A stretch of 64,000 nucleotides of DNA from assembly GCF_013167455.1 (NCBI RefSeq), contig NZ_CP038328.1. One strand, given 5' to 3'. The stretch comes from Escherichia coli O157:H7. Lineage in GTDB: Bacteria; Pseudomonadota; Gammaproteobacteria; Enterobacterales; Enterobacteriaceae. Positions 30,001-33,000 of the stretch are shown here, piece after piece (position 1 is the first letter of the stretch; every line of letters begins with the position of its first letter). Made by a program: the position numbers.

Positions 30001-33000
30001 ACTCAGATGAGCATGTTTGGTGGTGACAGTGAGCAACTGCACGCCCTTATCGACCGCCTTGATGACATCCCTGATGATGTTCTCAAAAAGAACTGGCCGC
30101 GGACCCTGTCAGAACTGGTTGAAGTCACCGGCGCAGAACTTCAGCGTCAGGGGATTGAGCCGGTACTGGCCGGTAAACTGGCACGCAAGGTGGCTGCGGC
30201 TCAGGCAGCCTATATGGGCGGACGGGGTTATTACCTGCCGGTCGGGGAATCTCTCTTTGCCGAGCTGCGAAACAATGAGATATTTTCGCGCTGGGACCGG
30301 GGCGAGAAAATTGAATCCCTTCGCCGCCATTACCGGATGTCAGAAACCCAGATTTATACCGTCATACGCGAACAGCGCCGTCTGCATCTGGCAAGAACGC
30401 AACCGCCACTTTTCTGATATTCCGCAAAGCCTGCCGCCTCTCCTTCACCGTTACGCTGACTCAGAGAACATCATGAGACAGCGTAACAATGCCAAAACTC
30501 CCCGCACCACTGCGTAAAAAGCTGATTGCCCTTGTTCTGGCCGGTGCCGGGACGTTCACGATTGCCACGCATTACACCGGTTACTGGGAAGGGAAAGAAA
30601 ACTCCACGTATATCGATCCCACCGGTACACCCACCATCTGTTACGGCCATACCGGCCCGGATGTGAAACCGGGTATGACCCTGACAGATGAAGAATGCCT
30701 GGAACTACTGGAAAAGGACATGAAATGGGCCTTTGCGGCCATTGATCGGCGTGTTCAGGTGCCGCTTACCCGTGGTCAGACGGTGGCGCTGGCTTCGTGG
30801 ATCTTCTGGGCCGGTGAAACGAACTTTCGCAACTCCACGCTTCTGCGCCTGATCAATGCCGGGCAGATGCCCGCGTCCTGTAAGCAGTATATCCGCTGGA
30901 TTTATTCAAAGGGGGTGAAACTCCCCGGCCTTGAGGCCCGCCGTTCGGCGGATGAATGGTTATGTCGCTACGACTTGCCGAAAGTCTGAACCGCTTCTGG
31001 CGACCGCTCATGATAGCGCTGCTGTGTGCGGTACTGCTGTTACGGGGTGTCCTGTGGCTGCGGTGAATAATGCCTTACCGGCCCTGATTGCCGGGGCGTG
31101 CATGGCGGCGCTGGGGATTATCGCTGTACTGGTTGCCGCTATATGGGGAATGCACCAGAAGACGCAGCGCCTTGAAGACAATAATCAGGTGCTTGTGCGT
31201 GAGCGGGATGAGGCGCGTCAGGTGCTGGCAAATCAGCAGCACACCCTGCAACTCATTTCACAAATCAGTGAGGCGGCCACGAATGAAAAACAACAGAACA
31301 TTCAGCACAGCGAGGGGCAGCAGAGCGTTGTCCGCCGGTCGCTGGCGGCAGTGCCTGCGGCCTCTGCCCCTGTTCCTGATGATGTGGCTGATCGGGTGCG
31401 CCGGGCCGTCTGTGAAATACGTGCCTGTGAAGCCGGTGCCGATCCCCGCTGAATGGCTGGCTGACTGCCTGGTCCCTCCTGCGCCGGAGCCGTTCACGTT
31501 TGGGGCATCGGTCACTTACAACCTGCAACTGCTGGCGGTGATCAAGAACTGCAACGTGGACAAGGCCAGTATTCGTCGTCTGGAGGCGCGGCGACAACAT
31601 GAATTTACTGATATGGCCGGAACGCCTGCTGTTCCGGCAGGAAAGACGAAGTAAGGAAAAAGGTATGGATGATTCAGATCGTGCTCAGGCTGTGATGGAG
31701 CGGGGATCAGAACGCGCCCTTTGTAACCGGCTGACACGTAAGCGCCGGGCAATGGATGCTCCGGGCAGACGTGTCTGCGCGGACTGTGGCGGAGAGATCC
31801 CCGCCGCACGTCTTGTTGCTGTGCCGGATGCCATCCGTTGTGTGAACTGCCAGAACATCATGGAGGCCCGTCATGTGGGTCAGCATCGTTAAAGATTATG
31901 TTGTGCCGATCCTTTCGGCGACGGCAACCGCTGGCGGGATATTCATGGCGCTGATGCGCAAAACGTTTGTCCCCCGCGAGGCCTTTGAAAAACTCTCCGA
32001 CCGCGTTGAGAAGGTGGAAACCCGCCTGTCGTCACTGCCGACAGAAGCCGAGGTCAACCGTCTGAATGTGGAAATCGTGACCCTGCGGGGTGAACTGAAA
32101 ACCACGAACGCCACGCTCCGCTCTGTCTCCTATCAGAACGAACTGCTGCTGGAGCAGGCGGTAAGGAAAAAAACACAATGAGTGATTTCATTACTGAAGA
32201 TCAGCGTCTTGTCATTCTGCGGTCGCTGGCGGATTACAACGGCGAACTGGGTGAATCCGTGCTCCAGGACTGTCTGGATGATTACGGTCACCGCGTGTCC
32301 CGCGACACCGTTCATACTCATATTGCCTGGCTTGCCGAGCAGGGGCTGGTGCGTAAGCGCACGCTCGTTAATGGTTATTTCATCGCTGAACTGACCGGCC
32401 GGGGTCAGGATGTGGCGGAAGGCCGCGCCACCGTTCCGGGTGTGAAGAAACCACGCGCAAGGGGGTAACGATGGATAAGCCAACGCGTGGCCGTGTACGC
32501 AAGGTGGACTTGCTCCCCGACAGCATCCGTAAGCCACTGCTGGAAATGCTGCGTGAAAAACGTCTGACGCAGGTCCAGATACGCGAGGAAATCAACCGTC
32601 TGATCCGTGAGGCGGGCCTGCCGGAAGAGCAGCAGCTTTCACCGGCGGCCATCAGCCGGGAAGCCTCCCGTAATGAGCTGATTGCCCGTAACCTGCGTGA
32701 TTTACGCGAGCAGACAAAAGCCATGATGGCCGAACTGGGGGACAAGCCAACCGGTGAAACCACTGCATTGATCCTGGAGATGTCCCGCGCCCTGATGTAC
32801 CGCCGTCTGCGTGCCGCGACCGAATCCCTGAACAGTGACAGCGACGTGGATATGCGTCTTATTAAGGACATCCTCCTGTCAGCACAGCGTGCGGAAAGTG
32901 CCGCCGAGCGCAGCATTAAGCGTGAAAAAGAAATCAGGGCTGCATTTGCTGAAGAGATGGCAAACGCCGTCACCGACGAGCTGCGCGGCGTGGACGGGAT

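What the first reader, a model, noticed from the sequence alone, without database searches (positions are those of the whole stretch)
31665..31892. TraR/DksA-like zinc finger encoded between lysis and packaging genes
A 75-aa protein with CxxC-N17-CxxC (CADCGG ... CVNC) resembles TraR/DksA-family RNA-polymerase secondary-channel binders. Phage-encoded members can redirect host transcription during late development.
Basis: partly seen in the sequence, partly recalled or inferred. Interest (0 to 1): 0.25.

Follow-up and report, generated by a model that had tools for sequence, protein, structure and literature searches.

The report
Phage TraR-like RNA polymerase regulator gene
This is an ordinary, already-annotated small zinc-finger gene of a Mu-like prophage in E. 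coli; it belongs to the TraR/DksA family, whose members bind the host RNA polymerase and retune host transcription.

Summary
Window 31665..31892 (+) encodes a 75-aa protein with CxxC-N17-CxxC. That pattern occurs once in the six-frame translation of the window, against 0.02 expected.

Family evidence:
- It passes the curated cut-offs of Pfam PF01258 (45.9 bits, cut-off 24.9) and NCBIfam TIGR02419, the phage/plasmid TraR family (77.8, cut-off 59.7).
- It matches PHROG 54, and its best solved relative is F-plasmid TraR bound to RNA polymerase.
- It keeps the N-terminal DxxDxA tip (D2, D5, A7), the rim-helix arginine (R49) and a C-terminal helix.
- It lacks TraR's second arginine; L50 stands in that place.

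An identical protein is already named "TraR/DksA family transcriptional regulator" (WP_000342749.1) in RefSeq, and the DNA occurs in 230 of 5426 complete E. coli genomes.

The host element is a Mu-like transposable prophage. The gene sits in the late lysis-to-packaging gene string, 10 nt after the o-spanin gene and overlapping the gp25-like gene by 20 nt. Many distant Mu-like phages keep this slot, and it was noted for Burkholderia phage KS10 in 2008.

The mildly unusual points are the late position (the four tested phage homologues with known context are early genes) and Mu's own degenerate gp24 in the same slot. Interest is low.

The parts
31665..31892 (+). TraR/DksA-family gene, 75 codons plus stop; identical to RefSeq WP_000342749.1
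31653..31657 (+). AAGGA ribosome-binding site, 7 nt before the ATG; overlaps the stop codon of the o-spanin gene (TAA 31652-31654)
   Evidence: read directly from the sequence
31668..31685 (+). Codons for D2-D3-S4-D5-R6-A7, the DxxDxA tip motif; aligns with TraR D3/D6/A8 and DksA D71/D74/A76
   Evidence: role of the motif from PMC9239242
31776..31850 (+). C4 zinc ribbon C38-x2-C41-x17-C59-x2-C62; aligns with DksA C114/C117/C135/C138
31809..31814 (+). R49 (equivalent of TraR R48 / DksA R125, the contact with the beta' rim helices; invariant in 111 homologues) followed by L50 (TraR has R49 here, DksA has L126)
   Evidence: roles from PMC9239242
31842..31880 (+). Predicted C-terminal helix, residues 60-72, with E67 conserved in at least 90% of homologues; equivalent to the TraR helix that contacts beta Si1
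29992..30417 (+). Mor/C-family late transcription activator gene, preceded by an intrinsic terminator at 29927-29950; presumed activator of the downstream late transcript (context)
30489..31654 (+). Lysis cassette directly upstream: lysozyme, Rz-like i-spanin, embedded Rz1-like o-spanin LysC (context)
31873..33052 (+). Downstream genes in the same close-packed string: DUF2730 (Mu gp25-like; overlaps the TraR gene by 20 nt), VpaChn25_0724/gp26-like, Mu gp27-family small terminase (context)

Best explanation
The gene encodes a TraR-type member of the DksA/TraR family, carried by a Mu-like transposable prophage of E. coli. The proposed mechanism is inferred from homology to F TraR and lambda Orf73. 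The protein binds host RNA polymerase without binding DNA. Its N-terminal helix (residues 3-29) enters the secondary channel and places D2/D5/A7 near the active site. The zinc-ribbon domain docks on the beta' rim helices through R49. The C-terminal helix (60-72) contacts the beta lobe/Si1. Without needing ppGpp, this destabilises open complexes at rRNA and ribosomal-protein promoters, which frees polymerase and resources for phage production. It probably activates some promoters that open slowly, possibly more weakly than TraR because L50 replaces the beta'Si3-contacting arginine. From gene order, the gene is most likely co-transcribed and translationally coupled with the lysis and packaging genes from a Mor/C-activated late promoter, so it would act in the late phase of lytic growth.
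For: Shown here:
- The protein passes curated family thresholds: Pfam PF01258 45.9/24.9, TIGR02419 77.8/59.7, PHROG 54 E 9e-20.
- The single sequence hits TraR-RNAP structures 5w1s/6n57 end to end at E 2e-5, then DksA.
- A profile of 111 homologues built without TraR matches TraR over its full length (hhalign 98.8%, E 6e-17).
- In those 111 homologues C38, C41, R49 and C59 are invariant, and D2, D5, A7, I45, P54, C62 and E67 are conserved in at least 90%.
- The AlphaFold model (pLDDT 75) shows a long N-terminal helix, a zinc ribbon and a C-terminal helix.
- Its 11 best Foldseek PDB matches are all TraR/DksA-family chains, with TraR 6n57_M first.
- E. coli variants of 83-87% identity carry 10-13 amino-acid changes. 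None touches the tip motif, the cysteines or R49, and only E44D, V37A and N64S fall within residues 37-66.
- No sigma-70-like promoter is found in 29300-34000. The genes are packed or overlapping, and a Mor-family activator gene lies just upstream.
- The same slot (lysis genes, TraR-like gene, gp25-like, gp26-like, gp27, terminase) is seen in Vibrio, Pseudoalteromonas, Shewanella and Pasteurella phages and in metagenomic Mu-like contigs.

From the literature: TraR and all 5 phage homologues tested bind RNAP, inhibit rRNA and r-protein promoters and complement a dksA-null strain. The DxxDxA motif, R48 and the C-terminal helix are functionally important, and lambda Orf73 raises burst size (PMC9239242).
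Against: - There is no experimental data for this protein or for any Mu-like phage homologue.
- TraR R49, which contacts beta'Si3 and contributes to activation, is leucine here. DksA and most homologues also have leucine at that position.
- Foldseek TM-scores to TraR are modest (0.48-0.50, rmsd 6.5 A), and the linker residues 21-30 are of low confidence.
- The tested phage homologues with known context lie in early or regulatory regions. A late-operon member may therefore have another target or purpose.
- Late expression is inferred from gene order and from published knowledge of Mu's lys transcript, not measured.
- Phage Mu's own occupant of this slot, gp24, keeps the zinc ribbon but not the RNAP-contact residues.
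Confidence: 0.8

Rival explanations
1. A zinc-ribbon protein that retains the TraR fold but works with its conserved neighbours (gp25/DUF2730, gp26-like winged-helix protein, gp27 small terminase) in DNA packaging or in coordinating lysis with packaging, not through RNA polymerase.
For: The gene is tightly linked and translationally coupled to the gp25-gp27 string in many Mu-like phages. Mu gp24 in the same slot keeps only the zinc ribbon: ExxNxA in place of DxxDxA, V in place of R49, no C-terminal helix. Shewanella MuM16-1 p22 has a shortened ribbon.
Against: D2, D5, A7, R49 and E67 are the residues that contact RNAP in TraR, and they are conserved in at least 90% of 111 homologues, many from the same slot. 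That conservation is hard to explain without the RNAP interaction. No DNA-binding or terminase-related domain is detected. Pseudomonas JBD25 has gp25-gp27 without any such gene, so the gene is not needed for packaging as such.
Confidence: 0.1
2. An RNAP secondary-channel binder whose main targets are the phage's own Mor/C-dependent late promoters, or transcription-replication conflicts during replicative transposition, rather than host rRNA shut-down.
For: The gene lies in the late operon directly downstream of the Mor-family activator gene. TraR activates F-plasmid promoters in vitro, and the authors leave open that homologues regulate their own phage promoters (PMC9239242).
Against: [quoted passage not shown] L50 replaces the arginine implicated in activation by TraR. 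Nothing in the sequence distinguishes this reading from the general mechanism.
Confidence: 0.08
3. A decaying or functionless passenger ORF.
For: One viral contig carries a frameshifted copy (L030). Mu gp24 looks degenerate.
Against: The ORF is intact in the window and its DNA is present in 230 complete E. coli genomes. Functional residues are conserved across 111 homologues of 31-48% identity (plus one of 83%), and the position is conserved across phages of several gammaproteobacterial genera.
Confidence: 0.02

Closest known systems
TraR of the E. coli F plasmid (PDB 5w1s, 6n57; NCBIfam TIGR02419 subfamily)
   Same: About 73-75 aa. Same three elements in the same order: N-terminal helix starting with DxxDxA, C4 zinc ribbon with a 17-residue spacer, C-terminal helix. 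The R48 equivalent is present (R49). It is the best solved-structure match by both sequence and fold.
   Different: Only about 25-30% identical. It scores far below the F-TraR equivalog model NF010268 (24.8 against a cut-off of 108), so it is not an orthologue. L50 replaces TraR R49. It is encoded in a phage late operon rather than a conjugative transfer operon.
Phage TraR homologues tested experimentally: lambda Orf73, P2 Orf82, VHML Orf8, VP882 Orf61, X. bovienii Gp34 (PMC9239242)
   Same: Small phage-encoded TraR-type proteins of gammaproteobacterial phages with the same conserved motifs; the expected activity is the same.
   Different: The four with known context lie in early, lysis-lysogeny or replication regions. 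This one lies between the spanin genes and the packaging genes of a transposable phage. No sequence comparison with those five proteins was run here.
dksA/traR zinc-finger genes of other Mu-like transposable phages (Burkholderia KS10 gp7; Vibrio martha 12B12 VPCG_00028; Pseudoalteromonas HS6 gp35; Shewanella MuM16-2 p23; Pasteurella Pmp9_0011)
   Same: Same family and the same slot, immediately upstream of the gp25-like gene and the gp27/terminase genes.
   Different: About 38-40% identity where measured. The neighbouring lysis genes differ. Some have imperfect tip motifs: DxxExA in MuM16-2, DxxDxT in Pmp9, xxxDxA in HS6.
DksA of E. coli (PDB 1tjl)
   Same: The zinc ribbon aligns residue for residue (C114/C117/C135/C138, R125-L126), and the DxxDxA tip corresponds to D71/D74/A76.
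   Different: It lacks the N-terminal region and the first coiled-coil helix of DksA. It scores far below the DksA equivalog cut-offs (25.5 against 115.5; 23.2 against 289). By analogy with TraR it is expected to act without ppGpp.
Phage Mu gp24 (NP_050628.1)
   Same: Same slot, between the spanin gene and gp25. 64 aa with CxxC-N17-CxxC. hhalign to the homologue profile gives 81% probability, E 1.2e-5, over the ribbon.
   Different: No Pfam PF01258 hit. The tip is ExxNxA, valine stands at the R49 position, and there is no C-terminal helix. It is probably not an RNAP secondary-channel regulator.

Membership tests
DksA/TraR C4 zinc-finger family (Pfam PF01258) | Profile score above Pfam's gathering score | tested here: met
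   45.9 bits against 24.9, E 5.4e-12, residues 36-66
DksA/TraR C4 zinc-finger family (Pfam PF01258) | Four cysteines as CxxC-N17-CxxC | tested here: met
   C38, C41, C59, C62; they align with DksA C114/C117/C135/C138
TraR subfamily of phages and conjugative plasmids (NCBIfam TIGR02419) | Profile score above the curated cut-off, over the full length | tested here: met
   77.8 bits against 59.7; residues 2-67 match model positions 1-64 of 64
TraR subfamily of phages and conjugative plasmids (NCBIfam TIGR02419) | Short protein (about 70-75 aa) whose N-terminal helix begins with DxxDxA | tested here: met
   75 aa; D2-x-x-D5-x-A7 aligns with TraR D3/D6/A8; conserved in at least 90% of 111 homologues
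TraR subfamily of phages and conjugative plasmids (NCBIfam TIGR02419) | Arginine equivalent to TraR R48 (binds the beta' rim helices) | tested here: met
   R49, invariant in alignment A2; role from PMC9239242
TraR subfamily of phages and conjugative plasmids (NCBIfam TIGR02419) | Arginine equivalent to TraR R49 (contacts beta'Si3; contributes to activation) | tested here: not met
   L50 at this position. Leucine is also the majority residue in the homologue alignment and in DksA. This is therefore a property of TraR itself rather than of the family, but it may weaken activation.
TraR subfamily of phages and conjugative plasmids (NCBIfam TIGR02419) | C-terminal helix after the zinc ribbon (contacts beta Si1) | tested here: met
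   Predicted helix 60-72, with block pLDDT 86-90 up to residue 70 and 68 beyond; aligned with the C-terminus of TraR; E67 conserved
TraR subfamily of phages and conjugative plasmids (NCBIfam TIGR02419) | Three-dimensional similarity to TraR | tested here: met
   Foldseek PDB rank 1 is TraR 6n57_M (probability 1.00, TM 0.48/0.50, E 7.5e-3). Ranks 1-11 are all DksA/TraR-family chains. The TM-score is modest because the relative orientation of the helix and the globular domain is uncertain.
TraR subfamily of phages and conjugative plasmids (NCBIfam TIGR02419) | Binds RNAP in the secondary channel, inhibits rRNA promoters without ppGpp, complements a dksA deletion | not testable with these tools
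   Biochemical and genetic assays are needed, as in PMC9239242
F-plasmid TraR orthologues (NCBIfam NF010268 equivalog) | Score above the equivalog cut-off | tested here: not met
   24.8 bits against 108
DksA proper (NCBIfam TIGR02420 / NF008045 equivalogs) | Full-length DksA with two-helix coiled coil; score above the equivalog cut-off | tested here: not met
   25.5 against 115.5 and 23.2 against 289. Only the second coiled-coil helix, the zinc ribbon and the C-terminal helix have counterparts.

The most novel reading that the evidence does not exclude
In Mu-like transposable phages the TraR homologue is a conserved, translationally coupled member of the late lysis-packaging operon. The experimentally studied phage homologues with known context are early genes. 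The protein may therefore have a late-phase role. One candidate is boosting Mor/C-activated late promoters. Another is clearing RNA polymerase from rRNA operons while the genome is full of transposition replication forks. Phage Mu itself would then have lost this function, since gp24 is a degenerate relic.
Probability: 0.2. Interest if true: 0.4.

Novelty: already known. Interest (0 to 1): 0.1.

Why it matters
It matters little beyond correct annotation. The protein is already named as TraR/DksA family in RefSeq, and the family's mechanism has been worked out for TraR and lambda Orf73. The modest value is that Mu-like phages offer a natural case of a TraR-type regulator expressed, by inference, from a late operon. 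The Mu gp24 / Mu-like TraR pair also gives a natural contrast (intact versus degenerate RNAP-contact residues in the same slot). Both could be used to ask what RNAP reprogramming contributes late in infection.

Tried and rejected
- The longer 97-aa reading from ATG 31599 was rejected. It overlaps the o-spanin gene, and both the family models and 111 homologues start at M1-D2 of the 75-aa form, although many database gene calls use the long form (P0001).
- The three antisense ORFs over the locus (97, 58 and 59 aa) have no Pfam match.
- A terminator-like hairpin inside the gene (31785-31808) has a poor T tract and is made of the Gly and Pro/Ala codons of the zinc ribbon, so I treated it as incidental.
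- The search for related loci with the diverse alignment A1 failed because no stretch was conserved enough. I used the look-up of encoding contigs and annotated phage records instead.
- Two of the six metagenomic contexts (P0043, P0058) were contigs too short to interpret.
- The profile search of the PDB with A1 is partly circular, because A1 contains TraR. The non-circular tests are.
- I assumed at first that the window was the O157 ydeN locus of NZ_CP066756.1. Only the prophage matches (99.1%), and the flanks are the ycj operon.
- A k-mer search for a shared activator site among candidate late-promoter regions gave only one weak 13-mer pair.

Full report
**Observation**

Window 31665..31892 (+) is an ATG-to-TAA ORF of 75 codons. 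It encodes MDDSDRAQAVMERGSERALCNRLTRKRRAMDAPGRRVCADCGGEIPAARLVAVPDAIRCVNCQNIMEARHVGQHR.
- That pattern occurs exactly once in the six-frame translation of the whole window. A hundred shuffles gave a mean of 0.02.
- AAGGA lies 7 nt upstream of the ATG.
- The ORF could mechanically start at ATG 31599 (97 aa). That start lies inside the o-spanin gene. The family models and 111 homologues begin at M1-D2 of the short form, and RefSeq calls the short form.
- Three antisense ORFs across the locus have no family match.

**Family**

- Pfam PF01258 (zf-dskA_traR) scores 45.9 bits against a gathering score of 24.9.
- NCBIfam TIGR02419 (phage/conjugal plasmid C4 zinc finger, TraR family) scores 77.8 against 59.7, covering the whole model.
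- PHROG 54, 'DksA-like zinc-finger protein', matches at E 9e-20 over residues 1-74.
- The equivalog models for DksA proper and for F-plasmid TraR are far from met. This is therefore a TraR-type family member, not an orthologue of either.
- Against solved structures, the single sequence finds TraR from the TraR-RNA polymerase complexes (5w1s, 6n57) end to end at E 2e-5. E. coli DksA follows, with an ungapped alignment that puts C38/C41/C59/C62 on DksA C114/C117/C135/C138 and R49-L50 on R125-L126.
- An exhaustive phmmer search of 1.84 billion cluster representatives gives 820 relatives at E up to 0.001. Most of the best 150 listed are about 60-80 aa and match end to end.
- In an alignment of 111 of them (A2, without TraR), C38, C41, R49 and C59 are invariant. 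D2, D5, A7, I45, P54, C62 and E67 are conserved in at least 90%.
- That profile matches F TraR over the full length (hhalign 98.8%, E 6e-17), with D2/D5/A7 on TraR D3/D6/A8.
- An AlphaFold2 model (mean pLDDT 75) has helix 3-29, a zinc ribbon, a short helix 47-52 and a C-terminal helix 60-72.
- Its 11 best Foldseek matches in the PDB are all DksA/TraR-family chains, led by TraR 6n57_M (probability 1.0, TM 0.48-0.50).

**What the literature says these features do**

Gopalkrishnan et al. 2022 (PMC9239242) tested TraR and five phage-derived homologues: lambda Orf73, P2 Orf82, VHML Orf8, VP882 Orf61 and X. bovienii Gp34.
- All of them bind RNA polymerase, inhibit rRNA and r-protein promoters at lower concentration than DksA, and complement a dksA-null strain.
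[quoted passage not shown] Lambda Orf73 slows host growth and raises burst size.
- The N-terminal DxxDxA motif contacts the active-site region. R48 binds the rim helices at the secondary-channel entrance. R49 contacts beta'Si3 and contributes to activation. The C-terminal helix contacts beta Si1.

The protein here has every one of these features except the R49 equivalent, which is L50. Leucine is also the majority residue among the homologues and in DksA. This is a difference from TraR itself rather than a departure from the family. It could mean weaker promoter activation.

**Selection**

E. coli variants of 83-87% identity from viral contigs differ by 11-15 synonymous and 10-13 non-synonymous codons. 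The amino-acid changes cluster in the linker (residues 6-33) and at the extreme C-terminus. The tip aspartates and alanine, the cysteines and R49 never change.

**Context**

- The 801 bases around the gene are 100% identical to many E. coli O157:H7 and other STEC chromosomes. They occur in 230 of 5426 complete E. coli genomes.
- In RefSeq the gene is annotated 'TraR/DksA family transcriptional regulator', WP_000342749.1, at exactly these relative coordinates.
- The element is a Mu-like transposable prophage. It carries a repressor-like HTH gene, Mu transposase, an AAA ATPase, Gam, GemA, a Mor-family activator, lysozyme, spanins, gp25-27 homologues, terminase, a DUF935 portal, Mu F and G homologues, protease, a gpT-family major head protein, contractile-tail genes, a recombinase next to tail-fibre genes, and Com.
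- Mu-like prophages are known in O157, for example Sp18 of strain Sakai (PMC2669165). I did not test whether this one is identical to Sp18.
- In this window the prophage does not sit where it does in the reference I used. Only about 21329-57851 matches that record (99.1%). The flanks are the ycj sugar-utilisation operon, with the phage inserted in ycjO.

**Expression (inferred)**

- The gene starts 10 nt after the o-spanin stop codon and overlaps the gp25-like DUF2730 gene by 20 nt.
- No sigma-70-like promoter is found anywhere in 29300-34000.
- A strong intrinsic terminator (29927-29950) separates the early gemA gene from the Mor-family activator gene, which is followed directly by lysozyme.
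- In phage Mu the C-dependent lys transcript runs from lys through the packaging and head genes. This statement rests on my own knowledge of the Mu literature and was not checked here.
- By analogy, the gene is probably a late gene that is translationally coupled to its neighbours.

**Conservation of the slot**

- A PF01258-type gene lies immediately upstream of the gp25-like gene in Vibrio phages martha 12B12 and 1.028.O.
- The same arrangement holds in Pseudoalteromonas HS6, Shewanella MuM16-2 and Pasteurella Pmp9.
- It also holds in four of six metagenomic or genomic contigs encoding distant homologues; the other two contigs were too short to interpret.
- Burkholderia transposable phage KS10 gp7, a dksA/traR zinc finger between the endolysin and small-terminase genes, was described in 2008 (PMC2628397).
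- Shewanella MuM16-1 has a variant with MDETDWA and a shortened CxxC-N11-CxxC.
- Pseudomonas JBD25 has gp25-gp27 but no such gene.
- Mu itself has gp24 in the slot. It is 64 aa with CxxC-N17-CxxC, but with ExxNxA at the tip, valine at the R49 position, no C-terminal helix and no Pfam hit. It is related to the family profile only over the ribbon (hhalign 81%, E 1.2e-5).

**Verdict**

The gene is a TraR-type DksA/TraR family member. It most likely binds the secondary channel of host RNA polymerase and shifts transcription away from ribosome synthesis during lytic growth.
- Family membership is shown.
- RNA polymerase binding, independence from ppGpp and late timing are inferred.
- The feature is already annotated and belongs to a well-studied family, so novelty is nil and interest low.
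- The only mildly unusual aspects are the conserved late-operon position in Mu-like phages and the degenerate state of Mu gp24.

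Noticed in passing
window 37622..37701 (- strand): A tRNA-like element lies in the gap between the Mu F-like head-morphogenesis gene and the Mu G-like gene. 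PGAP labels the same spot 'tRNA-OTHER' in an O157 genome. ARAGORN finds nothing, and the whole-window Rfam gathering search listed nothing. A local Rfam search gives RF00005 tRNA at 31.0 bits (gathering score 29), with good acceptor, D and T arms but an over-long anticodon region. The fold z-score is only -1.8.
   Followed up: partly
L004:3025-3219 (phage Mu NC_000929.1 11524-11718, gp24): Mu gp24, annotated as hypothetical, occupies the same slot as the TraR-like gene and has CxxC-N17-CxxC. It lacks the DxxDxA tip (it has ExxNxA), the conserved arginine and the C-terminal helix. It has no Pfam hit, and hhalign to the homologue profile gives 81% over the ribbon only. It is probably a degenerate or repurposed TraR homologue.
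   Followed up: partly
window about 19771 and about 57851 (prophage-host junctions): The Mu-like prophage is inserted in ycjO of the ycj sugar operon, not in ydeN as in NZ_CP066756.1. About 201 bp of ycjO (NZ_CP030767.1 1445054-1445254) are absent between the two host flanks, where a 5-bp target duplication would be expected. No complete E. coli genome in the collection has the phage at this site.
   Followed up: partly
window 29927..29950 and 29992..30417: A strong intrinsic terminator (9-bp stem followed by TTATTTT) lies between gemA and a Mor-family activator gene. The RefSeq annotation of this prophage lists only one Mor-family gene, whereas Mu has two (Mor and C). This suggests a shorter regulatory cascade.
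   Followed up: no
window 30419..30431 and 38347..38359: ATTCCGCAAAGCC upstream of lys resembles ATCCCGCAAAACC upstream of the head protease gene (2 mismatches in 13). This could be a site for the Mor-family activator, or it could be chance.
   Followed up: no
window 31599..31892; proteins P0001, P0003: Many public gene calls for this protein use the upstream ATG (97 aa; for example a cluster of 337 members). This adds 22 residues in front of the DxxDxA tip and is probably a mis-called start.
   Followed up: partly
window 31785..31808 (+): An 8-bp GC-rich hairpin inside the TraR-like gene was flagged as terminator-like. It has a weak T tract and is built from the codons of the zinc ribbon, so it is probably incidental.
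   Followed up: no
L030:4001-4226; L017-L029: One viral contig carries a frameshifted copy that loses the last cysteine and the C-terminal helix. The 83-87% identity variants all have R6C, giving MDDSDCAQ, inside the tip motif.
   Followed up: no
L039:1381-1605 (Shewanella phage MuM16-1 p22): This gene, annotated as hypothetical, sits in the TraR slot. It has MDETDWA at the N-terminus but a shortened CxxC-N11-CxxC ribbon.
   Followed up: no
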